64,000 bases of DNA from Gammaproteobacteria bacterium (GCA_050123375.1 JASFHF010000006.1:2309-66308); one strand, 5' to 3'. Shown: positions 2,552 to 22,992, counted from the first letter of the stretch. The notes: generated by a model from the sequence alone, not told the origin. Numbers and translations: made by a program.

Positions 2552-3388
2552 ATGTCAACATATGCAATTGGTGATGTACAAGGTTGTTATGCAGAATTAA
2601 TGCTGCTGCTTGAAAAAATAAAATTTAGCCCGGCTAAAGATCGATTATGGTTTGTGGGTGATTTGGTAAATCGTGGTCCGAAGTCATTGGAAGTTTTGCG
2701 TTTTATCAAAAATCTTGGGAATAAATGTGTTGTGGTTTTAGGTAATCATGATTTGCATTTGTTAGCAGTTGTATATGGCAGTCAGCAATATAGTGATGAG
2801 GATACTTTTGTTGATGTGTTGGACGCAGATGATAAAGATGAATTGTTGCTTTGGCTGCGGTCACAAAAACTTTGTCATTATGATGAAAAATTAAATTTTG
2901 TGATGACGCATGCGGGAATTCCGCCGCAGTGGGATTTGGCAACGACGCAGCAATGTGCGCAAGAAGTGGAACAAATTTTGCAAAGTAATAAACATATAGA
3001 GTTTTTTGAGCATATGTATGGCAATCAGCCGAATTATTGGAATAACGATTTGTTAGGTTGGGATCGTTATCGTTATATTACTAATGCGCTTACCCGAATG
3101 CGTTATTGCGATAATGAAGGGCGGCTTAATTTGACGGAAAAGGGCCCGATTGATAATGCGCCTGCTGATTTGATTCCTTGGTTTGAGATGCTAAATCCAA
3201 AAAATAAAAATTTTAATATTGTTTTTGGTCATTGGGCAGCATTAATGGGCAGCGCAACAGAAGCTTATGTTGCAAAAAATATTTTTGCAATTGATACCGG
3301 ATGTTGTTGGGGGCGGAAATTAACCGCACTGCAATTGGAAACACGGCAGTTGTATGGGGTCGCATCTTCACTTGTTAAATTAGAATAA
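2552..3388 (+). CDS. apaH: bis(5'-nucleosyl)-tetraphosphatase (symmetrical) ApaH
   Basis: MSTYAIGDVQGCYAELMLLLEKI...FVGDLVNRGPKSLEVL...GNHD matches the ApaH metallophosphatase signature. Follows ksgA as in E. coli. Confidence 0.9.
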   Translation: MSTYAIGDVQGCYAELMLLLEKIKFSPAKDRLWFVGDLVNRGPKSLEVLRFIKNLGNKCVVVLGNHDLHLLAVVYGSQQYSDEDTFVDVLDADDKDELLLWLRSQKLCHYDEKLNFVMTHAGIPPQWDLATTQQCAQEVEQILQSNKHIEFFEHMYGNQPNYWNNDLLGWDRYRYITNALTRMRYCDNEGRLNLTEKGPIDNAPADLIPWFEMLNPKNKNFNIVFGHWAALMGSATEAYVAKNIFAIDTGCCWGRKLTALQLETRQLYGVASSLVKLE

Positions 3389-3391
3389 GTA

Positions 3392-3540
3392 GACGGGACG
3401 GAGCTTCACTCATTAAAAGTTGTCGGGTCGCGAGCTTTACATGGTTACGAGGTAATAGCTAAATTCTTTGAGGGTCGGAGCTTTACATGATTACAAAGCA
3501 ACAAGCAAGGCCTTGTAATTATGTAAAGCTCGCGACCCAA
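3392..3540. repeat. family-A palindromic intergenic repeat (full copy 3470-3538 plus degenerate half-copies)
   Basis: GAGGGTCGGAGCTTTACATGATTACAAAGCAACAAGCAAGGCCTTGTAATTATGTAAAGCTCGCGACCC has ~25-bp inverted arms. Source of spurious ORF 3487..3693. Confidence 0.8.
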
Positions 3541-3547
3541 CAACCTT

Positions 3548-6747: not shown

Positions 6748-6785
6748 TTAAAGAGTTTATTTAATAAGTTTTGGAGGGCGATAAA

Positions 6786-7703: not shown

Positions 7704-7728
7704 TCTCAATAAACAATGGAGAGTTAAT

Positions 7729-8097
7729 ATGAGCACACAGGCTTTAAATGAGATCGGTAAGGTTTATGAACGTCCTTGGGGAACCTATAAAACTTTGGAT
7801 ATTGGTGATGGATATCAGGTTAAAATCATTGAGGTCAAACCAGGAGGCCGTTTATCATTGCAAAAGCATTTTAAGCGTGCTGAACATTGGGTGGTAATCA
7901 AAGGTACACCAACAATAACTGTGGGTGACAAAACCGAACAACTCGTTGTAAATCAAGGGGTTTTTATTCCGGTTACGACCATTCATCGTTTGGAGAATTT
8001 TACCGATCAACCTGCTGCTATCATTGAAGTTCAAGTCGGTTCATATCTGGGTGAGGATGATATTGAGCGTCTTGATGATATTTATAGTAGAAAATAG
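7729..8097 (+). CDS. mannose-6-phosphate isomerase, cupin type (type II PMI domain)
   Basis: ERPWGTY...VKIIEVKPGGRLSLQKHFKRAEHWVVIKG...IHRLEN...IEVQVGSYLGEDDIERLDDIYSR is the classic AlgA/ManC C-terminal PMI cupin. Confidence 0.8.
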   Translation: MSTQALNEIGKVYERPWGTYKTLDIGDGYQVKIIEVKPGGRLSLQKHFKRAEHWVVIKGTPTITVGDKTEQLVVNQGVFIPVTTIHRLENFTDQPAAIIEVQVGSYLGEDDIERLDDIYSRK

Positions 8098-8236
8098 TCT
8101 TTAATAATCAAGATGTTACAAATGGGTAGCGTCCCGTCCAAATCCATGCAAGTTTTCTGCTAATTTCGTATGCGTTAGATAATTAAATGGGCTATACTTA
8201 GTTCGTATAGTTCCATGCAGAAAAGAGAGCTGTTTT

Positions 8237-9070
8237 ATGGTAGAAAATAATGAAATGCAAGGGTTAGAGCTAAAAGAAGTCATTCCATCCGTCGCTGTTA
8301 ATGAAGGATCAGAAGTTACAGCCATTGATTTGAATGATTATATCAATAATCCAACAGGTGAAGCGCTGCGGTTTACTGTTGAGCTGGTTGGTGGGGGTTC
8401 TTTGCCGGCTGGGATTAATTTTAGCGCTGATGGGATTTTAAGCGGTATTCCTCAAGCAGGTACTGCAAGACCTTTACCTTATGAGATTACTATAGTTGCT
8501 TTTAATCCTAAAGTTGCTCCTTTAGTAATGCATTTTAAACTTACAATTTATGCAGCAGCAGGAAAAATAGATTACAACGATTTTAAAAATTATTGGCAAA
8601 ATTTTGCGGAAGGGTTGGCTCTTCCGGATATAGAACAATTATTAACTCGCGAAATAACCCCTTTAGATATTTATTATATGCTGGGGCGTTTCGCTACTTT
8701 GATTATTTGGAATGCGGATGATTTAACTTCGGCAACTAAAGGTGTGGTAATTGACATTCCGCAAGCAAGCAAATTATTTAAAGTTTATGATTTTAGTAGT
8801 GCGATCGTTACTTCGCCTAGTGATTTGTATGATCCTAATCGTGGGTTGAAAGATGCAATTCAGACTGCTAAAGCAATGATTCGTGAAATTAAGCGGCGCA
8901 ATTGGAATATTGAGTTAGCAGGTTATGACAAAATGGTGACAGCTGCCTGGGTTGAAGTACAGCATCTTAACAAAGCAACACCAGGCAATCCGATTAAAGT
9001 ATATAATTATGAGCCGTCTTTGTTTGATACGGAAGTTTTGGCATTGAGTTCACCGCAGCAACAGATTTAA
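8237..9070 (+). CDS. hypothetical protein with N-terminal putative Ig-like (He_PIG/dystroglycan-type) domain
   Basis: FTVELVGGGSLPAGINFSADGILSGIPQAG fits the PF05345-like pattern. Remainder unrecognised. Confidence 0.45.
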   Translation: MVENNEMQGLELKEVIPSVAVNEGSEVTAIDLNDYINNPTGEALRFTVELVGGGSLPAGINFSADGILSGIPQAGTARPLPYEITIVAFNPKVAPLVMHFKLTIYAAAGKIDYNDFKNYWQNFAEGLALPDIEQLLTREITPLDIYYMLGRFATLIIWNADDLTSATKGVVIDIPQASKLFKVYDFSSAIVTSPSDLYDPNRGLKDAIQTAKAMIREIKRRNWNIELAGYDKMVTAAWVEVQHLNKATPGNPIKVYNYEPSLFDTEVLALSSPQQQI

Positions 9071-9086
9071 TTAACGAGGTAATATT

Positions 9087-10223
9087 ATGGTTGTAGAATA
9101 TAAGGATTATCGAAAAAGATTTAAAGAGGACGTAATTGATGATTTAAAGATAGGTTTAAAGAAAATCGGCATACTTCAAAATGCCAACAAAGATGAAAAC
9201 AGAATCAAGGAACTCGAAATAGCATTTAAAGAAGCAAAGAAGGAGGTAGAAGAGTATGGTCATGATTATGACTGCGAAAAAGTTAAATGTATAAAGCAGG
9301 ACTTGGACAAAGCCAAACAGAATGCTGAAAATAATGTAATTAGTATTGAACACATTGTTAAATTTTTTGAGAAGGTTGATAAGTGGTTGGAAAAAGATTT
9401 TTCTATTGAAGAATTAAAGGAAGTGGAAAAAAAAGTTAGGAAATTTAAGAAATCGAAAGAATCTGAATATAAAAAATACGCTGCAGCTCTAGCACTGGTG
9501 CGCAGATCTTGTAGAAAAACTCTTAATTATATAAATTGTATGAAAATGAGGAAAAAGTGGAAGCAAGTGTCCATGAGTAGTGGACCAGCTTATATATTTG
9601 ATTTTAAGAATCCATTTGAGGTTGTTCGTACCGGCAATCTTGCATTTCTTATACCATTTTTGGGTGGTAAAGAGTCGTTAATGGTTAGGCAAATTGAGGA
9701 TAAGAATGGTAGAAAATCTTTTGAGTTTGATCGTAATTTTTTTACTAGAATAAAAGGTGTTAATTTATATACAGTTGTTGATCAATTTTGTGATTACTTT
9801 GAGAAAGAAATTAACAAAGGTTGCTATATGCAATTTAATTTTAGGGATAAAAAAGATTTATTTAATATATGTGAAGAATTGGTTAAGCGTAATGTAAGGT
9901 TGAATTTAAAAAAAACGGATTTACCGGAGATAGATAAATATAAATTGGTAGGTCTGTATATAAAGCAGTTAAAGAATGAAGAAAGGAAGCAAAACGGTGT
10001 AATGGTAAAAGGATTTGCGAAAAATGATAAAGACGAGGATTTTATTAGTAAGGGTGAGTTTGTAAAAAGATGTGCGAAGGTAGAGATTACTCCGAAGTTG
10101 CAAAAATATGTTTGGAAAAACCATGGAGTGCGGATTTCAGGTAGCACAGAATTAACCTTTGACCAGAAAGAGAAAGACTTGCCGAATCCTACCACCCAGG
10201 TCATCAAAAATGTCAGCGTGTAA
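9087..10223 (+). CDS. hypothetical lysine/glutamate-rich protein (coiled-coil N-terminus)
   Basis: 378-aa ORF 17 bp after the previous gene. No recognisable domain. Confidence 0.4.
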   Translation: MVVEYKDYRKRFKEDVIDDLKIGLKKIGILQNANKDENRIKELEIAFKEAKKEVEEYGHDYDCEKVKCIKQDLDKAKQNAENNVISIEHIVKFFEKVDKWLEKDFSIEELKEVEKKVRKFKKSKESEYKKYAAALALVRRSCRKTLNYINCMKMRKKWKQVSMSSGPAYIFDFKNPFEVVRTGNLAFLIPFLGGKESLMVRQIEDKNGRKSFEFDRNFFTRIKGVNLYTVVDQFCDYFEKEINKGCYMQFNFRDKKDLFNICEELVKRNVRLNLKKTDLPEIDKYKLVGLYIKQLKNEERKQNGVMVKGFAKNDKDEDFISKGEFVKRCAKVEITPKLQKYVWKNHGVRISGSTELTFDQKEKDLPNPTTQVIKNVSV

Positions 10224-10335
10224 TCGTCATGCACCGCATATTTTAAAGTGTTAACTTTAAAGTATTAAGTCTCTTGCCAAAGATTCAGAAATTGTGTAAG
10301 GTGAAGCCTTTAATTATCAAATCAATAGGCGGGTC

Positions 10336-10692
10336 ATGGAACAAATTATTCTGGTTTTTCATGTTTTATTTGCAGTGGCGTTAATTGGTCTCGTATTGTT
10401 GCAGAAGGGTAAAGGAGCTAGTATGGGTGCTGCTTTTGGTAGTGGTGCCTCACAAACCGTCTTTGGTAGTCGCGGTTCTATTGGGTTTTTAATGAAGCTT
10501 ACTCTGTTATTTGCTGCTTTGTTTTTTGCTACCAGCATTTGGTTGACTTATCTTGCAGCGCATCGTGCTAAAGAGAGTCCGTCGCAAGGTTTATTGAGTC
10601 AGGTGGAGCAGATTTCGAAAAGTACTAAAAAACCAGCTAAAAAAATAAAGACTAATACGGTACTTAAAAAGAGAGGTAAAAGAACAAAGTGA
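10336..10692 (+). CDS. secG: preprotein translocase subunit SecG
   Basis: [28 protein letters not shown] matches the SecG signature. Followed by tRNA-Leu as in E. coli (secG-leuU). Confidence 0.85.
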
Positions 10693-10709
10693 TTTTGTGA
10701 CCTCCGAAC

Positions 10710-10791
10710 GCCGGAGTGGTGGAACTGGTAGACACGCCATCTTGAGGGGGTGGTGGCGAAAGCCGTGTCGGTTCGAGTCCGACCTTCGGCA
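10710..10791 (+). tRNA. leuU: tRNA-Leu (anticodon GAG), long variable arm, CCA not encoded
   Basis: Hand-folded: acceptor GCCGGAG/CTTCGGC (one G-U), D stem GTG/CAC, anticodon stem CCATC/GGTGG with loop TTGAGGG, variable hairpin GGCGAAAGCC, T arm GTCGG-TTCGAGT-CCGAC, discriminator A. Confidence 0.8.
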
Positions 10792-10862
10792 TTCAGAAGA
10801 CAGATGATGGAAACCGGCATGTTGGTTTTTAGTTTGAATAAGAGCGGAGATTTATTCTAAGC

Positions 10863-11048
10863 ATGTTAGCTAAAGTTTTAATTGTTTTACTTGCGGCATT
10901 TTTCTTGTGGTGGATCATTCGTTATTTCAAATTAAATTACAATGCGTTTTCTGCTAAAAATTTGAATCGTAGTTTTTTTACCATGGGAATTTTAGCCCTT
11001 ATTTTAATCGTATTTATTTATCTGTGTGTGCTTTTTGTTAGGATGTAG
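10863..11048 (+). CDS. hypothetical small membrane protein
   Basis: 61 aa with two hydrophobic segments. Weak support. Confidence 0.2.
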   Translation: MLAKVLIVLLAAFFLWWIIRYFKLNYNAFSAKNLNRSFFTMGILALILIVFIYLCVLFVRM

Positions 11049-11258
11049 TTTTTATATGCTATTACTAGTGGTAACACTTAGTTAGATTATGTGGCAGCTG
11101 CCGCGCATGTTATATTTGTGTTCTTTTTTAGTTGTTTGCATGCTTGGCTACTCGTGATTTTACAAGACAAGCAGGTTGTAAAATCACGAGTTCCATTTAA
11201 CGCCAACAACATTTGTGCTTATTATAATTTCGCATCTTCAGTGACGCTCGGTATATAT

Positions 11259-12104
11259 TTATATTTCTTTCGGTAACCAGTGCGTTTTATTTTTTGCTGC
11301 TTTAACTTTATCCATTTGCTCGATAAGTCTGAAAGCTTCAAAACCGATAATTAGAGCTTCCGTTTCGCGTTTAGCTTTTAGTTCAGGATCAATGAACGTG
11401 CCTTTAGGTCGATTGGCTACGGCTTCGCAAATAGTAGAAGCGCGGAAACCTTTCATGTTGGCAAGGTTGAAGATGGTTGATGATTCCATCTCAAAGTTAT
11501 ACACATTCATGGCTGCCATTTGGTCTGGTAAATCAGGGTTTTTCACATGAATTCCAGGGATCTTGCGTCCTTGAGCGCCATAAAATCCTGAAGCTGTAGC
11601 AGTTAAGCCGACATGATATGGGATTTCTTGTTGTTCTGAAGCCATCATTAAGGCCATGATTACTTCATGGTGAGCAATAGCTGGATAGCCTTCATGCACG
11701 AAGTAAGTTGAAGTGTCTTCTAAACGAACCGCACCGCTGGAAATGACCATATCTCCAAGATTAATTTGTTCCTGTAAACTGCCGCAAGTGCCTACACGAA
11801 TAAATGTAGGATTTTTGGTTACATGAAATACCTCAATCATGCCGATTTCGATACATCCAGGTCCCATACCGGTGGACATAACTGAAATAGGAGTGCCTTT
11901 GTATTCGCCGGTGAAAGTCCGATATTCGCGGTTGTGTTGTTCCACTGTAATATTGTCTAATAGAGCGGCTGCTCTTTCGGCGCGTTTAGCTTCACCAACT
12001 AAGATAATATATTCGGCTAATTCTCCGGGGGCTAGGGCAATATGATACTGTCTACCAGTTACGTCGCTTACTACATCAGCGTTTTGAATTTGTTCAGTTT
12101 TCAT
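11259..12104 (-). CDS. PNP/UDP-family nucleoside phosphorylase (uridine phosphorylase-like)
   Basis: FTGEYKGTPISVMSTGMGPGCIEIGMIE, IRVGTCGSL, GAVRLEDTS, NFEMESSTIF parallel E. coli Udp/DeoD. Confidence 0.75.
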   Translation of the reverse strand: MKTEQIQNADVVSDVTGRQYHIALAPGELAEYIILVGEAKRAERAAALLDNITVEQHNREYRTFTGEYKGTPISVMSTGMGPGCIEIGMIEVFHVTKNPTFIRVGTCGSLQEQINLGDMVISSGAVRLEDTSTYFVHEGYPAIAHHEVIMALMMASEQQEIPYHVGLTATASGFYGAQGRKIPGIHVKNPDLPDQMAAMNVYNFEMESSTIFNLANMKGFRASTICEAVANRPKGTFIDPELKAKRETEALIIGFEAFRLIEQMDKVKAAKNKTHWLPKEI

Positions 12105-12213
12105 TGTTGTGTCTCCTCTGTAGAAAGTGCACCCATATTATAGCACAAGATTTTTCTAAACATTAGGCTTGAAAGACTTTATACTGGTAGAAAGAGCAGT
12201 TAAGGAGGATTGA

Positions 12214-13410
12214 ATGCTGCAAGTATTAGCTAATTTTTGGCATTTATGCTGCACGGTCGGCAAACGCTGTATTGCGGATCGGTTAACGGGGGCGGCAGCA
12301 TCTTTAACTTTTACCACTTTATTGGCTTTAGTACCGTTAATTACAATTTGTATTGCAATTTTCTCTGCTTTTCCAATTTCGCATGCTATTGGTCATAACG
12401 TTTCACAATTTATTTATCAGAATTTTTTACCAACTTTTGGTAAAGTAGTCCAAAAATATCTACAGGATTTTGTAGTGCAGGCGGGTCGGTTATCTTTTCT
12501 TGGGATTATTGCTTTAGTTGTGACTGCAATTTTAATGATGTTAACAGTTGAACAAACATTTAATCAAATTTGGAAAGTTAGATATCGAAGATTAGAATTA
12601 AAATCTTTATTAGTTTATTGGGCAGTATTAAGTTTAGCGCCAATTTTTATTGGATTAAGTATTGCAGCTACTTCTTATGTTATTTCTTTGCCATTAGTTG
12701 TCGGAGCAGTAGCAAAACTTGGAATGAAAACAATTTTATTACACAGCGCACCGTGGATTTTTACCATATTGGTTTTGTGGTTGTTATATGTAATTGTGCC
12801 AAATTGTAAAGTTCCGATACGTTATGGTTTGGTTGGCGCAATAATTGCAACGCTTCTATTTCAAATGGTTAAAACTGGATTTATAATTTATATTAATCGT
12901 TTTGCAACTTATGGTTTTATTTATGGCGCTGTGGCAATTATACCAATTTTTTTATTGTGGGTTTATTTGTTGTGGTTGGTGGTATTATTTGGAGCTTTAA
13001 TCACAAATGTTTTAACAGTTTATTCTTATAGCGGAAGAGTGGGGAAATTTGATGGGTTTACTCATGCTTTTTTGTGGTTGGGTTATTTATGGCGCGCGCA
13101 GCAACAAGGAAAAAGTTTATCACTAAAACAATTGGCTTATACTTTGCGCGGGCATTATAAAATTGATATTTATTTGCAATTGCAGGCTTTGTTAAAAGCT
13201 AAATTTATTTCGATTACTGAAAATAATCGTTATATTTTATCACGTGATTTTTCTAAAACTACTTTAGCAGATTTGTATCAGGCTTTGCCGTGGAAATTGC
13301 CGCATGTAAAAGTTCATGAATTGTTTTCAGAAAAAATGCAGCAAGTTCTACAGGATGCGGATAAATCGGTGAATGAGAAGCTTAATGTTTCGTTAAGCGA
13401 ACTATATTAA
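12214..13410 (+). CDS. YihY/BrkB-family inner membrane protein
   Basis: AASLTFTTLLALVPLITICIAIFSAFP and multiple TM helices. C-terminal ~100-aa extension. AAGGAGGA RBS. Confidence 0.75.
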   Translation: MLQVLANFWHLCCTVGKRCIADRLTGAAASLTFTTLLALVPLITICIAIFSAFPISHAIGHNVSQFIYQNFLPTFGKVVQKYLQDFVVQAGRLSFLGIIALVVTAILMMLTVEQTFNQIWKVRYRRLELKSLLVYWAVLSLAPIFIGLSIAATSYVISLPLVVGAVAKLGMKTILLHSAPWIFTILVLWLLYVIVPNCKVPIRYGLVGAIIATLLFQMVKTGFIIYINRFATYGFIYGAVAIIPIFLLWVYLLWLVVLFGALITNVLTVYSYSGRVGKFDGFTHAFLWLGYLWRAQQQGKSLSLKQLAYTLRGHYKIDIYLQLQALLKAKFISITENNRYILSRDFSKTTLADLYQALPWKLPHVKVHELFSEKMQQVLQDADKSVNEKLNVSLSELY

Positions 13411-13417
13411 TATCTTA

Positions 13418-13960
13418 GAGGGTCGGAGCTTCACATGATTACAAAGCAACAGGCAGGGCATTGTAATTATGTGAATTTACATCCTTTTAGCTCCAAGTTT
13501 TTAATTATTCCCTCAGTTCTTATAAAATTTCTTAGAGGGTCGGAGCTTCACATGATTACAAAGCAACAGGCAGGGCATTGTAATTATGTGAATTTACATC
13601 CTTTTAGCTCCAAGTTTTTAATTATTCCCTCAGTTCTTATAAAATTTCTTAGAGGGTCGGAGCTTCACATGATTACAAAGCAACAGGCAGGGCATTGTAA
13701 TTATGTGAATTTACATCCTTTTAGCTCCAAGTTTTTAATTATTCCCTCAGTTCTTATAAATTTCTTTGAGGGTCGGAGCTTCACATGATTACAAAGCAAC
13801 AGGCAGGGCATTGTAATTATGTGAATTTACATCCTTTTAGCTCCAAGTTTTTAATTATTCCCTCAGTTCTTATAAAATTTCTTAGAGGGTCGGAGCTTCA
13901 CATGATTACAAAGCAACAAGCAGGGCATTGTAATTATGTGAAGCTCGCGACCCGAGTTGC
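13418..13960. repeat. tandem array of ~4.6 copies of a 117-bp unit derived from the family-A palindromic element
   Basis: Copies start at about 13418, 13535, 13652, 13769 (1-bp deletion) and 13885. Inter-copy sequence is identical, so this is not CRISPR. Only the last copy carries the right arm ...GTGAAGCTCGCGACCC. Produces spurious MITKQQAGHCNYV ORFs 13435..13788 and 13785..14189. Confidence 0.85.
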
Positions 13961-15232
13961 TTATGTTGTTATTTTGGTTTGCAAGAAATTTATCAGCTCA
14001 TCATTTTTAATTTGCGTTATGTTGGTATCTGTACGGGATTTATATTCAATCGTGCCGTTATCTAAACCTTTTTCACCAATGACTAAACGGTGTGGAATAC
14101 CAATTAGTTCCATGTCAGCAAACATTGCGCCAGGACGTTCGGCGCGATCATCAAATAAAACTTCAAAGCCTGCTTTAGTTAGTTTTTGATAAAGTGATTC
14201 TGCAGCAATTTTTACTCGTTCGGATTTGTTCATGGCAATTGGAATAATCGCGATTTGAAACGGCGCTATAATTTCCGGCCAAATAATTCCTTTATCATCA
14301 TGATGTTGTTCAATTGTTGCGGCAACGGTTCTGGAAATCCCGATGCCGTAACATCCCATTAACATTGGGATTGCTTGGCCTTGTTCATCCAATACAGTAG
14401 CCTTCATTGATTTGGAATATTTATCTCCAAGTTGAAAAATTTGTCCAACTTCGATGCCGCGTGCTAACTTTAATTTGCCTTTGCCGTCAGGACTTGGGTC
14501 GCCTTCTTTTACGTTGCCATGGTTAATCATTTCAACATTAGCGGCATAGTCGCTGGCATCACTGTATGCAATTGCGTCTTCACCAGATTCTGCAATTACC
14601 TGAAATTCTTGTGACATGTTGCCGCCTATTTGTCCGGTCGAGGCAATTACTGCGCGAAAATTTAGACCCAATCGGGTGAAAATTTTGTTGTAGGTCTCAT
14701 ACATTAAATCGTAGGTTTTTTGTAAACACTCTTTAGTTAAGTGAAAAGAATATGAGTCTTTCATCAAAAATTCACGGCTGCGCATTACCCCAAAACGCGG
14801 ACGAATTTCATCACGAAATTTAGTTTGAATTTGGTATAAGTTAATTGGCAGTTGTTTGTAACTATGCAATTCGTGTCGTGCAATTTCGGTAATTACTTCT
14901 TCGTGAGTTGGACCATAACAAAATTCGTGTTCGTGCCGATCAGTAATCCTTAATAACTCTTTACCATATTGATCCCAGCGTTCGGATTCTTTCCATAATT
15001 CGGCAGGAATCAGTGTAGGCAGCAATAATTCTTGCGCACCAGATGCATCCATTTCTTCGCGCACGATGTTTTCAACTTTGTGCAGCACGCGCCAACCAAG
15101 CGGTAACCAGGAATAAATTCCCGCGCTTAATTTGCGAATCATGCCGGCACGCAGCATTAATTTATGACTGATAAGTTCGGCATCCGTTGGTGTTTCTTTG
15201 AGTGTTGCTAGTAGGTATTTGCTGGTGCGCAT
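13961..15232 (-). CDS. proS: proline--tRNA ligase lacking the INS editing domain
   Basis: Collinear with E. coli ProS ([15 protein letters not shown]...). Jumps from ...DYAANVEM directly to [17 protein letters not shown], so the ~180-aa INS domain is absent. True start is M22 of the listed ORF with GGAGA RBS. Upstream codons belong to a palindromic repeat. Confidence 0.85.
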
Positions 15233-15235
15233 GGT

Positions 15236-15375
15236 GTCTCCAAGTGTTTTGGGGGTCGGGTCTTCACTCATTACATGATGCAACATGCAGTGCATATGTA
15301 ATGAGTGAAGACCCGACCCCGTATATTATTACCGCGTAACCATGTAAAGCTCGCGTCCCGCCAACATCCCATACA
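15236..15375. repeat. family-B palindromic repeat (GGGGTCGGGTCTTCACTCATTACATGATGCAACATGCAGTGCATATGTAATGAGTGAAGACCCGACCCC) plus family-A fragment
   Basis: Arms are near-perfect inverted repeats. The same family occurs at 22880-22990. Confidence 0.8.
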
Positions 15376-15377
15376 TT

Positions 15378-16148
15378 TTATAGAATGCACTTGGTTAATG
15401 CAAACTTTACGTTTTCATTAGTTTGTTTTGGATGGTCGGTTACATCTGGAATGATAAAACGAATTGTCATACGATGACGGCCAGCACTGATTTCAGGATA
15501 AAATATGACTTCTTTCGGTAGAGTAACACGAATTAGTTGATATGGCAGTTGTGGATCTAAAGTTTCATGATAAAAGCCTTGTTTGGCAATGCGGTCATGT
15601 GCTTTTGAGCTGTTTCTAATAATATTTAACAGGAGATTTATTGCTTGACGAATTTCAGCCAGTTCAGCTAGCCAGGCATCAATTTGAATTTGGTGAGATT
15701 CAGCAGGATGATTTAGCCAGTAGAAATAACCAGGATTATCTATACAACCATCACCGCCAGGGCTAAGTAAGCTTTGGCGTATTGTAGTTAAAAACTCATT
15801 AGCGCGTAGGTTTTGTGCTATTTTCCCTTGAGTGGTGATGAGGTGATTTTTATACTGTTTTAATTGGGTGAGAGTAGTATTTAATGTAGCTTGATTAACT
15901 TTAGGATCAGTATGCAGACGATGTAAAACTGTGATATGGCGATCAAACTCTTTGCTTAGTTTGGTTTTAAAATCCGGCCGGTCTAGAATGTTAATTGCAT
16001 CAATCATTAATCTAATGATTGAACGTGTAATTTGAATTGAAGTAGGCTGGCTAGTTGTAAGGGCATTCAGTTGCTGTAATATGTGTTCAAGTCTAAGGCT
16101 TACGCGGACTAGCTCATTTAGGGGTTGTTCGTAGGTAATTGATTCCAT
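15378..16148 (-). CDS. zapD: cell division protein ZapD
   Basis: YEQPLNELVRVSLRLEHILQQL, SPGGDGCIDNPGYFYWL, GFYHETL and MTIRFIIPD are collinear with E. coli ZapD (YacF). Confidence 0.8.
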   Translation of the reverse strand: MESITYEQPLNELVRVSLRLEHILQQLNALTTSQPTSIQITRSIIRLMIDAINILDRPDFKTKLSKEFDRHITVLHRLHTDPKVNQATLNTTLTQLKQYKNHLITTQGKIAQNLRANEFLTTIRQSLLSPGGDGCIDNPGYFYWLNHPAESHQIQIDAWLAELAEIRQAINLLLNIIRNSSKAHDRIAKQGFYHETLDPQLPYQLIRVTLPKEVIFYPEISAGRHRMTIRFIIPDVTDHPKQTNENVKFALTKCIL

Positions 16149-16199
16149 TATTTATAAATATTACCCGAGTCTTATCTATCAAACAAGGATATTATGAGT

Positions 16200-16405
16200 G
16201 TGGGGACGAGTCTTTATTAATTACAAAGCAATAAGCTAGATTCTTTGAGGGACGGAGCTTTACATAGTTACGGAGCAATAAGCAAGCTTCTTTAAGGGTC
16301 GGAGCTTCACATGATTACAAGGCAACAAACATGGTCTTGTAATTATGTGAAGCACACGACCCGACTACTTCATGCTTTGTAATTAGTAAAGACCTGCCCC
16401 CAAAT
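16200..16405. repeat. nested family-A palindromic repeats
   Basis: Outer GGGGACGAGTCTTTATTAATTACAAAGCA...TGCTTTGTAATTAGTAAAGACCTGCCCC encloses the inner GGGTCGGAGCTTCACATGATTACAAGGCAACA...GTGAAGCACACGACCC. Confidence 0.75.
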
Positions 16406-16443
16406 TCATGATATAATTAACAAATCTTAAGGAGGAAATTATT

Positions 16444-17022
16444 ATGAGTGCATTAGTTATTGTTATAATTATAGCAGTGGTTTTACTATTTGGTATTGTT
16501 GCGATTTATAATATGCTAATTCGGCTAATAGAAGCCGTGCGTAATAACAAGAAACAAATTGATATTCAGCTTGATCGCCGTTATAAGGTTTTTGAATCGT
16601 TAATTAACGTAGTAAAGAAATATATGGATTATGAGCAAACCACTTTAAAGGATGTGGTGAAGCTCAGGGGCCAAGCGCAACAAGCAGTTGCTAAAGGCGA
16701 CACCAAGGGACAAATTGAAGCAGAAAATGCTATTTCAAAAATAGCTTCTGGAATTAATTTAGTATTTGAGCGATATCCGGATTTGAAGGCGGATAAAAAT
16801 GCGTTGCAATTGCAAGAAGAAATTGTGAATACCGAAAATAAATTAGCTTATTCTAAGCAAGCTTATAATGATAGCATCGAAAAATATAATGCTACTAAAA
16901 AATCATTTTTCCAAAGCATGGTAGTTAGTTTATTTAAAGGCAGGCTTGATTTTGATTTTCCTTACTGGAGTTTAAGTGAAGAACAAATTAAGACGCAGGA
17001 AGATTATAAAGTAGAGTTGTAA
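16444..17022 (+). CDS. lemA: LemA family protein
   Basis: N-terminal TM plus IYNMLIRLIEAVRNNKKQIDIQLDRRYKVFESLINVVKKY matches the LemA signature. AAGGAGGA RBS. Confidence 0.8.
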   Translation: MSALVIVIIIAVVLLFGIVAIYNMLIRLIEAVRNNKKQIDIQLDRRYKVFESLINVVKKYMDYEQTTLKDVVKLRGQAQQAVAKGDTKGQIEAENAISKIASGINLVFERYPDLKADKNALQLQEEIVNTENKLAYSKQAYNDSIEKYNATKKSFFQSMVVSLFKGRLDFDFPYWSLSEEQIKTQEDYKVEL

Positions 17023-17032
17023 TGAGAATATA

Positions 17033-17150
17033 GGCGGGACGGGGCTTTACATAATTACAAGTGCTTTGCTTGTTGCCTTGTAATATGTAAAGCTCCGTCC
17101 CTCAAAAAATCTAGCTTATTGCTTTGTAATTAGTAAAAACCTGACCCTTA
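17033..17150. repeat. family-A palindromic repeat (inverted orientation) plus half copy
   Basis: GGGACGGGGCTTTACATAATTACAAGTGCTTTGCTTGTTGCCTTGTAATATGTAAAGCTCCGTCCC. Confidence 0.75.
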
Positions 17151-17184
17151 AAAAAGTTATGTAAGAACTGAGATCTAGATAAGT

Positions 17185-18222
17185 ATGAATAAAAACTACA
17201 TGCAATTCAAAGCTGCCGATTGGCGTGCAACTTTAGCTGAAAACCAACGTAAAACTTTTGGTGTAATTGCAGCATTTATGCTGATTTACATTATAGTTGG
17301 TTTAATTGTTGATATGTATATTCATGGTGGATTTATTGCGGGCAATTTTGGGCGGGTTTTTGTAGCGCTTATCAGCTTTCAAATTACTCCTTGGGCGACA
17401 ATTACCATGTTGATTGTCGCTGCTATTTCGTTATTAATTACTTTTGCGTTGCATGATCGGTTGATATTGTTGGGAACTAATAGCCGTGAAATTACACCAA
17501 AAACTGCGCAAAATTTAGCGGAACAACAATTATATAATGTGGTTGAGGAAATGAAAATTGCTGCAGGCATGCGTTATATGCCGAAGGTATATTTGATCGA
17601 AGCTGATTATATGAATGCATTTGCCAGTGGTTATAGCGAAAAATCTGCTTTAATTGCTATTACACGCGGATTGTTGCAAAAATTAGATCGTGATGAATTG
17701 GCTGCAGTAATGGCGCATGAATTAAGTCATATTCGTCATGGTGATATCAAGTTGACTTTAACCGCTTCAGTGTTGAGTAGTTTAATGTTAATTGTGGTTG
17801 ATATATTATTTTATAACGTAATTTTTGGCGGAAGCCGCAGACGGCAAAGTGGTGATAATAGATTTTTAATGATAATTATTTTATTGCGTTATTTATTACC
17901 GGTTATTACGATATTGTTAATGTTATTTTTAAGCCGTACACGTGAATATATGGCAGATGCTGGCAGTGTGGAATTAATGCGGGATAATACTCCATTAGGG
18001 CGAGCATTATTGAAGATAAATCAAGATCATCAAGATAATTTAGATACATATAAGCAAGAATATGGTCAAACCAAGCATGAGGATATTCGGCGTGCTGCTT
18101 ATATTTTTGACCCAATTTCAATCAAAGCTGATCCAGTGGTTTCTTTTACCAGCTTGTTTTCTACCCACCCATCAATTCCTTCACGCTTGCGTAAATTGGG
18201 ATTTCGGAAGCGTGAAGCTTAA
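17185..18222 (+). CDS. M48-family zinc metallopeptidase (HtpX-like), membrane-bound; 3' end remodelled by cassette insertion
   Basis: Carries the HEXXH motif in AVMAHELSHIRHGD with flanking TM segments. Lies next to lemA, a common pairing. The last codons overlap the left 30-bp direct repeat. Confidence 0.75.
   Translation: MNKNYMQFKAADWRATLAENQRKTFGVIAAFMLIYIIVGLIVDMYIHGGFIAGNFGRVFVALISFQITPWATITMLIVAAISLLITFALHDRLILLGTNSREITPKTAQNLAEQQLYNVVEEMKIAAGMRYMPKVYLIEADYMNAFASGYSEKSALIAITRGLLQKLDRDELAAVMAHELSHIRHGDIKLTLTASVLSSLMLIVVDILFYNVIFGGSRRRQSGDNRFLMIIILLRYLLPVITILLMLFLSRTREYMADAGSVELMRDNTPLGRALLKINQDHQDNLDTYKQEYGQTKHEDIRRAAYIFDPISIKADPVVSFTSLFSTHPSIPSRLRKLGFRKREA
18176..18205. repeat. left 30-bp direct repeat TTCCTTCACGCTTGCGTAAATTGGGATTTC flanking brnTA cassette
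   Basis: Identical to 18823-18852. Confidence 0.9.
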
Positions 18223-18468
18223 TCAATCAGAATGTTCGCTATAATATTCTGCGTATTTGTCTAATAATACCCGTATCATTTTTTGATATTGAGTGTGACG
18301 TGATTTTGCTGCTTTTTTGAAATATTTAAGGCTTGCTTTAGTAAGCGATAATGTAATTTTAACAGTTTCTTCTTTTAAAACTAATTCGTCGGGACCCGGT
18401 AAAAAGTCATGTCGTATTTTGATTTCATCAATCGGTTCATCAGTGTATTTTACTTTTTTCTTTCTCAT
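18223..18468 (-). CDS. brnA: BrnA antitoxin (DUF4415/COG3514, RHH)
   Basis: DEPIDEIKIRHDFLPGPDEL...KITLSLTKASLKYFKKAAKSRHTQYQKMIRVLLDKY fits the BrnA pattern. Overlaps the upstream brnT gene. Confidence 0.7.
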   Translation of the reverse strand: MRKKKVKYTDEPIDEIKIRHDFLPGPDELVLKEETVKITLSLTKASLKYFKKAAKSRHTQYQKMIRVLLDKYAEYYSEHSD

Positions 18469-18730
18469 ATATTTTTTTCCCCTTGCGCCAATAACCTGCG
18501 CCTATTATGCGTATTTTATAGTTTCTGTAAGTAAATCTTACAGTCATAATGGCATTGTCGACTTTGCCGAAACAATAGTATCTTTTTTCTGAATGGCTAT
18601 GATTTAAGTCTTCAGCGATAACACGATGTGGGTCTAAAAATGCTTTTTGAGCCTCAAAGAATGACACACCATGTTTGTGGCGATTGATTTTATCTTTTTG
18701 ATCATCCCATTCAAAAGTTGTTATTCTCAT
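18440..18730 (-). CDS. brnT: BrnT toxin (DUF497 ribonuclease)
   Basis: MRITTFEWDDQKDKINRHKHGVSFFEAQKAFLDPHRV...IRIIGAGYWRKG is the BrnT signature. Toxin-first order as in brnTA. Confidence 0.75.
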   Translation of the reverse strand: MRITTFEWDDQKDKINRHKHGVSFFEAQKAFLDPHRVIAEDLNHSHSEKRYYCFGKVDNAIMTVRFTYRNYKIRIIGAGYWRKGKKIYEKEKSKIH

Positions 18731-18822
18731 TATTGAATCATATCATATATCAATATAAAAAGCAATATAAAAATACTTATATATATACTTATTTTTATAA
18801 GGTTTTATTGGTTATTTGCTAG

Positions 18823-18852
18823 TTCCTTCACGCTTGCGTAAATTGGGATTTC
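18823..18852. repeat. right 30-bp direct repeat of brnTA cassette; retains ancestral 3' end of M48 gene (..RLRKLGFQKR*)
   Basis: In-frame continuation gives SRLRKLGFQKR-TAA. Confidence 0.85.
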
Positions 18853-18901
18853 AAAAGAGGTAAGTCTGGTTTTTATCAGAATCTTGCGTTAAAATTGAAA
18901 T

Positions 18902-19369
18902 ATGGAAATATCATTACTAATTCAAATTTTAGTTGCATTTGTTATTGGGGCGATTATTGGTTTGGAGCGTGATTTTCATGGTAGTCCGGCGGGTGTTAGG
19001 ACTTATGCGGCAGTTTGTCTTGGTGCCTGTGTGTTTGGGCTGATTTCTACCCATGCTCAGGGAGCACATTATTACCAGAGTGTTGCCGATCCCACCCGAA
19101 TTGCAGCGCAGATAGTTACGGGTATTGGTTTTTTGGGCGCGGGAGTGATTTTTCGTACTGGTGTTACAACCGTTGGTTTGACTACAGCCGCTACAATTTG
19201 GGCTACCGCGGCGGTTGGTTTAAGTATAGCATTTAGATTGTATAGTGTGGCAATATTTGCAGCGGTTTTGATTGTTGTTACTTTAGCTCTTAATGAATTA
19301 CCTTTGTGGGAGAATTTTAAGAATAAAATTAAAAAACGCAGAATTGAATATATGAAATCTAAAGAATAA
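18902..19369 (+). CDS. mgtC: MgtC/SapB family membrane protein
   Basis: VIGAIIGLERDFHGSPAGVRTYAAVCLGAC...GIGFLGAGVIF is the MgtC signature. Confidence 0.85.
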   Translation: MEISLLIQILVAFVIGAIIGLERDFHGSPAGVRTYAAVCLGACVFGLISTHAQGAHYYQSVADPTRIAAQIVTGIGFLGAGVIFRTGVTTVGLTTAATIWATAAVGLSIAFRLYSVAIFAAVLIVVTLALNELPLWENFKNKIKKRRIEYMKSKE

Positions 19370-19374
19370 TAATT

Positions 19375-19953
19375 ATGAGTATGTTAAATAATTATATAAC
19401 TTATCAGAATGTAGTTAATGCATTACAGTGTCATCATGCTGCGATATTTCCAGCAGAATTTCATGGTTATATGTGCGGAATTATTTGCGGCGGTAATTAT
19501 ACTGAAAATGAGGCGGGTTTTCGTATCGTGTTAGGTATGCTGCAGAATGAGAATTTTAATTCTAAAGAGGCTAAAGCTATTGCAGCAGAATTAATGTTAA
19601 ATACTTTTCATCAGTTACATGATGTTAATTGTGATTTTAAGTTATTATTGCCGGATGATGAGCAGCCAATTAGTTTGCGCAGTCATGCGTTGGCAGTATG
19701 GTGTCAAAACTTCTTAGGCGGATTGGGGTTGTCGGGAATTGACAGCAAAAAAATACAGCAGCAAGAGATTTATGAAATAATATTAGATATTGCAGAAATT
19801 GCAAAACTAAAATATAGCGATTTATTGGATCAGGATAGTGAAGAACAAGAAATGGAATTGATGGAACTAATTGAATATGTTAGAGTTGCGGTGTTGTTGA
19901 TTTATACCGAAAGTATGAGTCAGAATGATCAATCAATAAATGTGCGGCATTAG
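19375..19953 (+). CDS. ygfB: UPF0149 family protein YgfB
   Basis: PAEFHGYMCGIICGG...LLLPDDEQ...ALAVWCQNFLGGLGL...EMELMELIEYVRVAVLL is collinear with E. coli YgfB, which precedes pepP there too. Confidence 0.8.
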   Translation: MSMLNNYITYQNVVNALQCHHAAIFPAEFHGYMCGIICGGNYTENEAGFRIVLGMLQNENFNSKEAKAIAAELMLNTFHQLHDVNCDFKLLLPDDEQPISLRSHALAVWCQNFLGGLGLSGIDSKKIQQQEIYEIILDIAEIAKLKYSDLLDQDSEEQEMELMELIEYVRVAVLLIYTESMSQNDQSINVRH

Positions 19954-19994
19954 AGTTGAAGTTAGTTTGACTTATATCTCAGTTTTTACATAGT

Positions 19995-20190
19995 ACCTTA
20001 GAGGGACGGAGCTTTACATGATTACAAAGCAACAAACAGGGCATTGTAATTATGTAAAGCTCACGATCCGGGTTACCCAACTTCTTTTATCTATATCTCG
20101 GTTATTACATAGTACCTTAGAGGGACGGAGCTTTACATGATTACAAAGCAACAAACAGGGCATTGTAATTATGTAAAGCTCACGTCCCGT
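19995..20190. repeat. two tandem family-A palindromic repeats (~119-bp period)
   Basis: TTAGAGGGACGGAGCTTTACATGATTACAAAGCAACAAACAGGGCATTGTAATTATGTAAAGCTCACG(A/T)CCCG occurs twice. The second copy supplies a false N-terminus (MITKQQTGHCNYVKLTSR) to the pepP ORF. Confidence 0.8.
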
Positions 20191-21465: not shown

Positions 21466-21771
21466 GGGTTTGGGATTATTTTTTTGCGATTCGATTTTAA
21501 GTTTTGCTTCCTCAATTAGTCTAAATATTACTACTAATGCTGTTAGGCTTAATGTTATTTTGCTATATAATCTTATTTCCATACGGTCACGAATTTTTCC
21601 CAATAATTCTTCATAGGTTTTGCATTTTTTTTCTTGCATTAGTTTTTCAAGTAATTCTTTAGCACATGTTGCCTTATATTTTTTTTGAAGTGATACGGGA
21701 ATATCAGAACATTCAGAGTAATTTATTTTTCGTTTTTTGAAAAAACGAAAAAAGTATTCACAAAAACACAT
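21415..21771 (-). CDS. hypothetical protein
   Basis: 118-aa ORF downstream of galK. 3' end overlaps pepP 3' end. No recognisable domain. Start uncertain. Confidence 0.25.
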   Translation of the reverse strand: MCFCEYFFRFFKKRKINYSECSDIPVSLQKKYKATCAKELLEKLMQEKKCKTYEELLGKIRDRMEIRLYSKITLSLTALVVIFRLIEEAKLKIESQKNNPKPSQNILNFCESFRCRIS

Positions 21772-21784
21772 ATTATTATTATCC

Positions 21785-22873: not shown

Positions 22874-22879
22874 CACAAT

Positions 22880-22990
22880 TCTCCGCAATGTTTTGGGGTG
22901 GGGTCTTCACTCATTACATGATGCAACATACAGTGCATATGTAATGAGTGAAGACCCGACCCCATGTAATAGCTCGCGTCCCGCGTGCAT
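22880..22990. repeat. family-B palindromic repeat between galT and galK
   Basis: GGGGTGGGGTCTTCACTCATTACATGATGCAACATACAGTGCATATGTAATGAGTGAAGACCCGACCCC followed by a family-A fragment GTAATAGCTCGCGTCCCGC. Confidence 0.8.
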
Positions 22991-22992
22991 TC

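What the first reader, a model, noticed from the sequence alone, without database searches (positions are those of the whole stretch)
13418..13960. Prolific family of ~70-bp palindromic intergenic repeats (family A/B), including a 117-bp x5 tandem array
At least 10 intergenic loci (3392-3540, 13418-13960, 15236-15375, 16200-16405, 17033-17150, 19995-20190, 22880-22990, 31655-31830, 32470-32705, 36540-36725) carry elements of form GGGTCGGAGCTT(T/C)ACATGATTACAA-[AGCAACAxGCAxGGC]-TTGTAATTATGT(A/G)AAGCTCxCGACCC or the related B variant GGGGTCGGGTCTTCACTCATTACAT-...-ATGTAATGAGTGAAGACCCGACCCC. They are often nested or tandem. They sit almost exactly between stop and start codons of flanking genes, and create false N-termini (proS, pepP, ygfA, secreted ORF at 31651) and the recurring fake MITKQQAGHCNYV ORFs. 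Density (~1 per 6 kb) and the tandem expansions (13418-13960; 32582-32700) suggest an active MITE/REP-like element. Their position may also make them terminators or mRNA-stability hairpins.
Basis: seen in the sequence. Interest (0 to 1): 0.6.

Follow-up and report, generated by a model that had tools for sequence, protein, structure and literature searches.

The report
Nested hairpin repeat family filling intergenic gaps
The window carries a real, previously undescribed family of small hairpin-forming "junk" repeats that have been gained and lost between genes of an uncultured gammaproteobacterium, the same kind of selfish element as the MITE/REP repeats known from many bacteria, so it is ordinary in kind though new in sequence.

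Summary
All ten loci carry the described arms: about 46 arm copies and 15 full 67-nt palindromes, against 0 expected by chance. The 117-bp x4.6 array (13409-13942) and a 40-bp x3.7 array (32555-32698) are real.

It is a ~155-bp nested double hairpin: outer arm, 20-nt spacer, inner 67-nt palindrome, 12-nt spacer, outer arm. It often decays to the inner palindrome.

A related MAG (JASFHH01, ~90% identical, syntenic with window 1-20 kb) has the family at at least 15 places. It lacks the clusters at 3392-3540 and 16200-16405, has one where the window keeps only remnants, and has a single copy where the window has the array. So elements have been gained and lost recently.

Five stem positions show two-sided compensatory changes among subfamilies A, B' and B. 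Loop, bulge and G:T are conserved. I found no target duplication, no U-tract, no strand bias, no Rfam family and no transposase in the window. The MAG's only RAYT is flanked by a different GTAG REP.

Verdict: a new family of non-autonomous MITE/REP-like hairpin repeats, closest in design to Coxiella QMITE2. The mobilising enzyme is unknown. Interest is modest.

The parts
3356..3538 (+). Cluster with four left arms (3356 weak, 3395, 3426, 3472) and one right arm (3510). The inner A palindrome is 3472-3538. The weak first arm encodes the last residues of ApaH. The cluster fills the apaH/rho convergent gap.
   Evidence: absent from the orthologous MAG site (35-bp gap)
13409..13953 (+). Tandem array of a 117-bp unit x4.6. 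Each unit is a 61-nt 5' module plus an A palindrome whose 3' arm is interrupted and truncated. Only the last unit (13887-13953) is complete. The array lies between the yihY stop and the proS stop.
   Evidence: the MAG ortholog has a single copy
15252..15358 (+). Perfect B palindrome (15252-15320) followed by an A-type right arm (15333-15358). This is a composite A(B) that has lost its A left arm. It lies just upstream of the proS ribosome-binding site.
   Evidence: the MAG ortholog keeps the A left arm and carries B' instead of B
16202..16401 (+). Triple-nested cluster: B'-like outer arms (16202-16229 and 16374-16401), an A2 left arm (16249-16275) and an inner A palindrome (16296-16362). It lies in the divergent zapD/lemA promoter region.
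   Evidence: absent from the MAG ortholog (25-bp gap)
17036..17185 (-). A palindrome in reverse orientation (17036-17101), a B'-like arm (17121-17147) and a type-2 module remnant up to the htpX start.
   Evidence: the MAG has an unrelated CGTC-type repeat at this site
19960..20188 (+). Two tandem 119-bp units, each a type-2 5' module plus an A palindrome (20003-20069 and 20122-20188). They lie between ygfB and pepP and create a false pepP N-terminus.
22895..22985 (+). B palindrome (22895-22963) plus an A right-arm remnant. This is a second copy of the A(B) composite, just upstream of the galK ribosome-binding site.
31664..31819 (+). Best-preserved full-length element (156 bp): outer arms 31664-31692 and 31793-31819, inner A palindrome 31713-31779. 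As RNA it folds into one long hairpin of -86.6 kcal/mol.
32466..32730 (+). Outer left arm (32466-32492, which supplies the TGA stop of the NUDIX gene), inner A palindrome (32514-32580), three further right arms at a 40-bp period (32592-32699) and a type-2 module. A true intrinsic terminator follows at 32733-32757.
36550..36712 (-). B'-like arm (36550-36575), A palindrome in reverse orientation (36583-36649), a type-2 module and a weak arm (36689-36712). The cluster lies between parE and ygfA.
8098..8236 (+). Decayed remnant (GTCTTTAATAATCA...GCGTCCCGTCC) of a cluster that is still intact at the orthologous MAG site.

Best explanation
This is a family of non-coding, non-autonomous selfish DNA repeats of the MITE/REP-like kind.

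Anatomy. The full-length unit is a ~155-bp nested double hairpin: a ~27-nt outer arm, the spacer TAATAGCTAAATTCTTTGA, an inner 67-nt palindrome, a ~12-nt spacer (GMCTAMWTY...) and a ~27-nt outer arm. The inner palindrome has a 25-27-bp stem with one bulged base and one G:T pair, and the loop AGCAACAAGCAGGGC.

Behaviour. Copies are inserted into, and lost from, the short gaps between genes. The outer arms decay, leaving the 67-nt core. Copies sit inside the loops of other copies. Arms and whole units multiply locally, which produced the 117-bp, 119-bp and 40-bp arrays.

Shown here: it is repeated, it is dispersed in two genomes, it was gained and lost since about 10% divergence, it has a conserved polarity, it has compensatory stem changes, and composites are re-used as units.

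Inferred:
- Propagation needs the folded hairpin (single-stranded DNA or cruciform) rather than a double-stranded end sequence. It depends on an enzyme supplied in trans that is not encoded in the window.
- The arrays arose by replication slippage or unequal recombination between arms.
- Effects on the host are by-products: very stable RNA hairpins in untranslated regions, altered C-termini and stop codons, and spurious ORFs.
For: - Repeat statistics.
- Only one of 185,579 GTDB species representatives carries the 19-mer. That MAG (JASFHH01) has it at 16 places and is syntenic with window 3-19955 at 85-95% identity.
- Orthologous filled versus empty sites: 3392-3540 and 16200-16405 are absent in the MAG. 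The MAG cluster at L009 2490-2659 corresponds to mere remnants at window 8098-8236. Different repeats occupy 2433-2534 and 17033-17150 in the two genomes. The array is a single copy in the MAG.
- Full-length copies from both genomes are colinear over 153-156 bp. Flanks are conserved for about 20 nt on the 5' side and 5-9 nt on the 3' side.
- The A(B') composite recurs with identical junctions at L005, L014 and L015, and A(B) recurs twice in the window.
- In 33 copies about 98% of stem positions pair. Five stem columns carry two-sided changes: TA/AT/CG, AT/GC, GC/TA, TA/CG and GT/AT/CG. A, B' and B share the loop and the proximal stem.
- The bulge and the G:T are inherited by nearly all A copies, and the canonical strand scores ~98 bits against ~60 for its complement. 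So the arms are copied as a unit, not templated from each other.
- Hairpin stability: -23 kcal/mol as DNA (z = -10.6) and about -39 kcal/mol as RNA. The full element is -86.6 kcal/mol (z = -13.4).
- Elements sit in convergent (3), co-directional (5) and divergent (2) gaps, as expected of an element tolerated wherever it does no harm.
Against: - No mobilising enzyme was found. There is no transposase in the 64-kb window. The only one seen in ~115 kb of MAG loci, a RAYT, has its own different REP.
- No target-site duplication or defined insertion junction could be read from the two clean filled/empty pairs, because the flanks have diverged.
- The compensatory changes come from few subfamily founders, so they represent few independent events. 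B and B' are perfect palindromes, which could also arise by arm homogenisation.
- Nested insertion and propagation of a ready-made composite cannot be fully separated.
- The family-wide search used an exact 19-mer, so diverged relatives in other taxa would be missed.
Confidence: 0.6

Rival explanations
1. A classical cut-and-paste MITE. It would be an internally deleted insertion sequence whose 25-27-bp terminal inverted repeats are bound as double-stranded DNA by a DDE transposase encoded elsewhere in the genome, leaving short target-site duplications.
For: The full-length form has ~27-bp terminal inverted repeats, is 153-156 bp long, is non-coding, is multi-copy and shows insertion polymorphism. 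B arms begin with GGGG as Tn3-family ends do; that comparison rests on my own recall, not on a test.
Against: No target-site duplication flanks the outermost arms at any copy inspected. The end sequences differ between subfamilies at five positions, each compensated in the other arm, while the loop is conserved. That pattern fits structure recognition better than sequence recognition of the ends. The inner 67-nt core persists and is conserved where the outer arms are decayed. No matching insertion sequence occurs in the DNA available.
Confidence: 0.2
2. REP/REPIN elements mobilised by a REP-associated tyrosine transposase (RAYT) acting on single-stranded hairpins.
For: The element depends on a hairpin, has a conserved bulge and polarity, shows no target duplication and forms mosaic clusters like BIMEs.
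Against: That RAYT is flanked by its own inverted GTAG REPs (GTAGCCCGTATGGRGCRAGCGGAATACGGG at 4590+ and 5193-, also 3778+ and 6221-), not by A/B arms. That REP is absent from the window and from the other 21 loci. A/B elements have no conserved GTAG or CGTC tag, their stem is 25-27 bp against 5-13 bp in REPs (PMC3733652), and the arms are not themselves palindromic. Orientation is unbiased relative to GC skew (window 8:2, MAG 7:7).
Confidence: 0.12
3. Host-selected RNA elements: hairpins kept because they terminate transcription or protect mRNA 3' ends, or because they are small-RNA genes. Mobility would be secondary.
For: The RNA hairpins are extremely stable (about -39 and -87 kcal/mol). 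Three of five convergent gaps are occupied. The G:T pair makes the canonical strand slightly more stable than its complement (-39.3 against -36.8 kcal/mol). REP and QMITE transcripts have such roles in other bacteria (PMC3733652, PMC5896051).
Against: No U-tract follows any hairpin, and a separate intrinsic terminator lies next to the 32466-32730 cluster. Two clusters lie between divergent gene starts. In co-directional gaps the canonical strand is the sense strand in 1 of 5 cases. Orthologous genes in the MAG do without the elements. No Rfam family matches.
Confidence: 0.08

Closest known systems
QMITE2 of Coxiella burnetii (Wachter et al. 2018, PMC5896051)
   Same: It is a nested design. The full-size form (150-190 bp) has terminal inverted repeats enclosing a central palindrome, and frequent small forms consist of the central palindrome only. 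It lies mainly in 3' untranslated and intergenic regions, overlaps gene ends, has about 50 copies, shows regional deserts and has no transposase of its own.
   Different: There is no sequence similarity. The tip of QMITE2 is a GTAG REP and a target of IS1111, whereas here there is no GTAG and no insertion sequence was seen. QMITE2 has 7-11-nt direct repeats, and none were found here. Here the inner and outer arms are homologous to each other.
REP / BIME of enterobacteria and the GTAG/CGTC REP super-families (Di Nocera et al. 2013, PMC3733652)
   Same: These are extragenic palindromes that sit close to gene ends and can supply stop codons. They form mosaic clusters of units with conserved spacers, occasionally occur inside genes, and show species-to-species gain and loss.
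   Different: REP units are 20-40 bp with 5-13-bp stems and a terminal GTAG or CGTC tag. Here the stem is 25-27 bp and the untagged ends covary. The RAYT of the lineage is flanked by a different REP.
Correia elements (Neisseria), ERIC/IRU and RUP-type bacterial MITEs (reviewed in PMC3184786, PMC10969869)
   Same: They are 100-160-bp non-coding elements with ~25-bp inverted ends. They are co-transcribed with neighbouring genes, form long RNA hairpins and show insertion polymorphism between close relatives.
   Different: Correia elements have a TA target duplication and functional promoter and IHF sites, none of which was found here. Those families are not nested copies of their own arms.
Rickettsia palindromic elements (RPE)
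   Same: They are palindromic repeats that can lie in frame inside genes. Here B' lies at residues 311-333 of a GHMP kinase in MAG locus L007, and arms form the ApaH C-terminus and the NUDIX stop codon.
   Different: In the window the A/B family is almost wholly intergenic. The clearly in-frame insertions in the window belong to a second, unrelated repeat family.

Membership tests
MITE (bacterial miniature inverted-repeat transposable element) | Small (<~400 bp) and non-coding, with terminal inverted repeats | tested here: met
   Full-length copies are 153-156 bp with ~27-nt inverted outer arms. The only ORFs are artefacts of the repeat.
MITE (bacterial miniature inverted-repeat transposable element) | Many dispersed copies, with presence/absence differences between related genomes | tested here: met
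   There are 10 loci in the window and at least 15 places in MAG JASFHH01. Orthologous filled and empty sites are shown.
MITE (bacterial miniature inverted-repeat transposable element) | Target-site duplication flanking each copy | tested here: inconclusive
   No direct repeat is seen next to the outermost arms. Only two filled/empty pairs exist, and both have diverged flanks.
MITE (bacterial miniature inverted-repeat transposable element) | A parent insertion sequence or transposase with the same terminal repeats in the genome | not testable with these tools
   None is present in the 64-kb window or in ~115 kb of MAG loci. The complete genome is not available.
REP / REPIN (RAYT-associated) | Unit of 20-40 bp with a 5-13-bp stem, itself an imperfect palindrome | tested here: not met
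   The unit is 67 nt with a 25-27-bp stem, and single arms are not palindromic.
REP / REPIN (RAYT-associated) | Conserved terminal GTAG or CGTC tetranucleotide | tested here: not met
   The ends read GGGACG/CGTCCC, GGGTCG/CGACCC or GGGCCG/CGGCCC. The fourth position covaries rather than being fixed, and there is no GTAG.
REP / REPIN (RAYT-associated) | The RAYT gene is flanked by members of the family | tested here: not met
   The RAYT at L016 4626-5153 is flanked by GTAGCCCGTATGG...GGAATACGGG repeats, not by A/B arms. Only one RAYT could be examined.
QMITE2 (Coxiella burnetii) | Sequence homology, including a GTAG REP at the hairpin tip | tested here: not met
   The loop is AGCAACAAGCAGGGC with no GTAG.
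Intrinsic (Rho-independent) terminator | G+C-rich stem followed directly by a U/T run | tested here: not met
   No element appears among the terminator-like sites in 23001-43000, the only stretch scanned (the scan of 3000-23000 failed). By direct reading, the sequences after the hairpins at the other loci are AACAACC, GAGTTGC and GTATGC. A real terminator lies at 32733-32757.
Integron attC site | R''/R' core sites (RYYYAAC...GTTRRRY) and a nearby integrase and cassette array | tested here: not met
   The ends are GGGNCG...CGNCCC, and the neighbours are housekeeping genes.
Any curated RNA family (Rfam 15) | Match at or above the family's gathering score | tested here: not met
   There were 0 matches at gathering score. 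The only matches are sub-threshold hits to mir-19 at 29-35 bits against a gathering score of 50.

The most novel reading that the evidence does not exclude
The A/B' /B repeats may be a structure-selected mobile hairpin. On this reading an as yet unidentified enzyme that is neither a RAYT nor a DDE transposase recognises the conserved loop, the proximal stem and the bulge in single-stranded or cruciform DNA. It leaves no target duplication and preferentially places new copies into the loops of resident copies. That would make the element self-nesting and explain the mosaic clusters, the composites that propagate as units, and the replacement of B' by B at one orthologous host loop.
Probability: 0.2. 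Interest if true: 0.6.

Novelty: new member of a known kind. Interest (0 to 1): 0.3.

Why it matters
For annotation:
- The family explains false N-termini (proS, pepP).
- It explains a spurious 117-aa ORF.
- It explains altered C-termini and stop codons (ApaH, NUDIX).
- It explains why short-read contigs of this lineage break. MAG contigs end at elements, and the one look-up that found a window protein returned a 15.8-kb JGI contig that stops at the array.

For biology:
- It adds a clean example of hairpin repeats with compensatory stem evolution and no visible transposase. That is the same open problem as for CGTC REPs and QMITE2: how such elements move.
- The array is a ready strain-typing marker.

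None of this changes current concepts.

Tried and rejected
- Metagenome scan with the 19-mer gave 6 hits. All are single 20-23-nt matches in unrelated, mostly coding contexts with no second arm, so they are chance hits.
- The viral-contig scan found nothing. Distant blastn of the full-length element found no match in plasmids or phages.
- A search with the array ORF against 5.8 billion protein clusters found nothing at E <= 0.01.
- Look-ups of proS (two start codons) and zapD, meant to fetch other strains, found nothing on record.
- Literature searches for the sequence strings, the MAG name, and Legionellales plus MITE terms returned nothing relevant.
- A fuzzy-regex census missed most copies and was replaced by nhmmer.
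- The first promoter/terminator call failed because it covered one base too many. The second showed that promoter-like sites are too common in this A+T-rich DNA to be informative (103 found against 83 expected).
- Replication-strand bias of the canonical strand, expected for IS200/IS605-like single-strand transposition, is 8:2 in the window but 7:7 in the MAG. I rejected it.
- I looked for IHF sites, attC core sites and Tn3-like ends by eye and rejected them.
- MAFFT put the 3' arms of the subfamilies out of register (A1). I therefore counted pairs from each copy's own fold rather than with the pair-counting tool.

Full report

Yes.

- Tandem Repeats Finder reports a 117-bp unit x4.6 copies at 13409-13942 (98% matches, no indels) and a 40-bp unit x3.7 copies at 32555-32698.
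The B arm has 4, two inverted pairs at 15252/15296 and 22895/22939. Both have 0 expected in shuffles.
- A profile of 14 arm variants finds about 46 arm copies.
- A covariance model of the 67-nt palindrome, run with filters off over the whole window, finds 15 full palindromes: nine complete A, four truncated array units and two B. Nothing credible appears beyond 36.7 kb.
- All ten occupied gaps lie in the first 37 kb. With 29 usable gaps there and 12 in the last 27 kb, P = 0.018. That second part holds low-G+C, effector-like genes.

**2. Anatomy**

*The core.* It is a 67-nt hairpin: GGGWCG-GAGCTTYACATGATTACAA, loop AGCAACAAGCAGGGC, then MTTGTAATTATGTRAAGCTC-R-CGWCCC.
- The stem has 25-27 bp, with one bulged base in the 3' arm and one G:T pair (ACATGATT against AATTATGT).
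- As DNA it folds at -23 kcal/mol (z = -10.6). As RNA it folds at about -39 kcal/mol.
- The loop, the bulge and the G:T give it a polarity. The canonical strand scores ~98 bits and the complement ~60.

*Subfamilies.*
- B' has the arm GGGGCCGGGTCTTTACTAATTACAA. In its stand-alone form it occurs only in the MAG.
- B has the arm GGGGTCGGGTCTTCACTCATTACAT and occurs in the window.
- Both share the loop and the proximal stem with A and differ in the distal stem.

*The unit is larger than the palindrome.*
- The 20 nt before it (TAATAGCTAAATTCTTTGA) and 5-9 nt after it (GMCTA..T) are conserved in both genomes. Most copies are preceded by a further left arm and many are followed by a further right arm.
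- Twelve extended copies were aligned. The six that keep both outer arms are colinear over 153-156 bp: outer arm, spacer, inner palindrome, spacer, outer arm.
- The best example is 31664-31819. It folds into a single long hairpin of -86.6 kcal/mol (z = -13.4).

*A second 5' module.*
- Its sequence is TTTTTAATYATTCCCTCAGYTCTTATAAA..TTCTTAGA.
- It replaces the outer arm and spacer in other copies: the array, 19960-20188, and in reverse at 17148-17185, 32700-32730 and 36651-36690.
- It recurs at a non-orthologous MAG site, L008 122-180.
- I read it as a deletion derivative of an A2 arm. That is inference.

*The arrays.*
- The 117-bp unit is this module (61 nt) plus a palindrome whose 3' arm carries a 14-nt insertion and lacks the last six pairs. 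Only the fifth unit is complete.
- 20003 and 20122 are two units of a similar 119-bp repeat.
- 32592-32699 is three extra right arms at a 40-bp period.

**3. Relatives elsewhere, and mobility**

*Distribution.* An exact 19-mer scan of one genome per 185,579 species found the family in a single genome, the MAG "Gammaproteobacteria bacterium D0608M12metaG_sub_Bin_249" (JASFHH01). It occurs at 16 places there. The metagenome hits are chance matches. Viral contigs, plasmids, phages and the protein collection gave nothing.

*Synteny.* MAG contig 22 is syntenic with window 3-19955 at 85-95% identity. That allows site-by-site comparison:
- The clusters at 3392-3540 and 16200-16405 are absent from the MAG, where the gaps are 35 and 25 bp.
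- The MAG has a four-arm cluster where the window (8098-8236) keeps only two short remnants.
- At 2433-2534 and 17033-17150 the two genomes carry different repeats.
- The element after the yihY stop is shared, but it is a single copy in the MAG.
- At 15236-15375 both genomes have a palindrome inside an A element. The MAG has B' and keeps the A left arm. The window has B, in the opposite relative orientation, and has lost that arm.

So copies were gained, lost, decayed and replaced during about 10% sequence divergence.

*Composites propagate as units.* A(B') has identical junctions at L005, L014 and L015, and A(B) occurs twice in the window.

*Copy number.* MAG contigs begin or end at elements (L008 position 56; L013 position 3195 of 3204). 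A JGI contig carrying the window's YihY also stops at the array. The MAG's copy number is therefore underestimated.

**4. What constrains it?**

- In 33 copies, about 98% of stem positions are paired in each copy's own fold. Five stem columns show changes on both sides: TA/AT/CG, AT/GC, GC/TA, TA/CG and GT/AT/CG.
- The same protein would have to bind both ends of a classical MITE, so compensated end changes are not what sequence-specific end recognition predicts. They are what a requirement for the hairpin predicts.
- The bulge and the G:T persist in almost all A copies, so one arm is not simply copied from the other.
- Caveat: the changes trace to few subfamily founders, and B and B' are perfect palindromes.
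- The shared orthologous copy (13887 against L014 5149) is 94% identical, about the same as its flanking genes. There is no sign of special conservation.

**5. Function tests**

- *Terminator:* not supported. No T-run follows the hairpins, and a real terminator at 32733-32757 sits next to one cluster.
- *Context:* three convergent, five co-directional and two divergent gaps are occupied. In co-directional gaps the canonical strand is the sense strand once in five.
- *Replication strand:* the + strand is G-rich across the whole window (skew +0.07 to +0.27). Canonical orientation is 8:2 in the window but 7:7 in the MAG, which is no bias.
- *RNA family:* none.

**6. Partner enzyme**

- No transposase is encoded in the window. 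NCBIfam or Pfam was run on 30 ORFs, and I read the remaining translations by eye.
Pfam confirms Y1_Tnp at 24.0 bits against a cut-off of 23.
- That gene (4626-5153, minus strand) is bracketed by inverted GTAG REPs (GTAGCCCGTATGGRGCRAGCGGAATACGGG at 4590+ and 5193-), with a second pair at 3778+ and 6221-.
- This REP is absent from the window and from all other loci.
- The lineage therefore has a classical REPtron, but it belongs to another repeat.

**7. Comparison with known families**

- In kind this is a bacterial MITE/REP-like repeat.
- The closest design is Coxiella QMITE2. It has a full-size nested form and a small palindrome-only form, lies in 3' untranslated and intergenic regions, and has no transposase of its own (PMC5896051).
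- It differs from QMITE2 in sequence, in lacking a GTAG tip, and in lacking visible direct repeats.
- It fails the defining features of REPs: size, terminal tag and RAYT flanking (PMC3733652).
- It meets the MITE features that could be tested, except target duplication (inconclusive) and a parent insertion sequence (not testable here).

**8. Verdict**

This is a real, recently dynamic, sequence-novel family of nested hairpin repeats. It is ordinary in kind, its mobilising enzyme is unknown, and its visible effects on the host are annotation artefacts and altered gene ends. Interest 0.3.

The organism is probably a Legionellales-like intracellular gammaproteobacterium. The indications are mevalonate-pathway genes in the MAG loci, an F-box-like ORF and Lys/Asn-rich ORFs, 35% G+C and a strong GC skew. 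That placement is inference, not a test.

Noticed in passing
window 36940-37018 and 1859-1925; L014 2152-2256; L007 about 3956-4183: A second, unrelated palindromic repeat (GTCATCCCGCGG-N5-CCGCGGGAT, in inverted dimers) lies in frame inside housekeeping genes. In the 5-FTHF cyclo-ligase gene it splits the Pfam match into two stretches and encodes ...DPAVKPRDD.... In rsmA/ksgA the protein is about 24 residues longer than the profile. The same family is intergenic in the MAG. It looks like the CGTC-type REP dimers (dRS3/RPE-like) of PMC3733652, which are known to occur inside genes.
   Followed up: partly
L016 3778-6233: A classical REPtron in the related MAG. A 175-aa RAYT (Y1_Tnp) is bracketed by two nested pairs of inverted GTAG REPs (GTAGCCCGTATGGRGCRAGCGGAATACGGG). 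This REP is not seen anywhere else in the DNA examined.
   Followed up: yes
window 10710-10791: A tRNA-Leu (GAG) lies downstream of secG. ARAGORN and the Rfam E-value run found it (46 bits, gathering score 29). The first Rfam run at gathering threshold returned no match at all, so that mode can miss real genes.
   Followed up: yes
window 15233-15252 and 22874-22895 (minus strand): Both B palindromes are followed on the minus strand by nearly the same 18-20 nt, CCCCAAAACAYTTG(C)GGAGA, which holds the Shine-Dalgarno sequence of proS and of galK. The repeat's flank may have supplied or replaced their ribosome-binding sites.
   Followed up: no
L007 4759-4823; window 3356-3388 and 32466-32474: A/B-family arms reach into coding sequence. 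B' lies in frame at residues 311-333 of a GHMP-kinase gene, exactly where the Pfam C-terminal domain match stops. An arm encodes the last ~10 residues of ApaH. Another arm supplies the TGA stop of the NUDIX gene.
   Followed up: partly
window 18223-18730: A BrnT/BrnA-like toxin-antitoxin pair is present in the window but missing from the syntenic MAG contig. It is an indel of about 600 bp between htpX and mgtC.
   Followed up: partly
window 50353-50470: A perfect 30-bp x3.9 tandem repeat lies inside a 596-aa ORF with an F-box-like N-terminus and encodes YPEPYTFYNQ repeats. Neighbouring large Lys/Asn-rich ORFs (24075-25463, 26410-28824, 46959-48035, 52110-53324) have no or only sub-threshold Pfam matches and a G+C of 0.29-0.31. 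They look like effectors of an intracellular bacterium.
   Followed up: no
window 2433-2534, 42791-42926, 59296-59427, 904-1018: Other long inverted repeats that do not belong to the A/B family. One has 21-nt perfect arms (GGGGTCAAGGCTTGAATTTTA) where the MAG has an A(B') composite. One has 42-nt arms (90% complementary) between mrcA and pilM. One is a 43-nt pair containing ACTGTCGTTTTTCGACAGT upstream of an AbiEi/AbiEii pair.
   Followed up: no
window 1-64000: GC skew is positive in every 4-kb window (+0.07 to +0.27). The whole window therefore lies on one replichore, with the + strand as the leading strand.
   Followed up: yes
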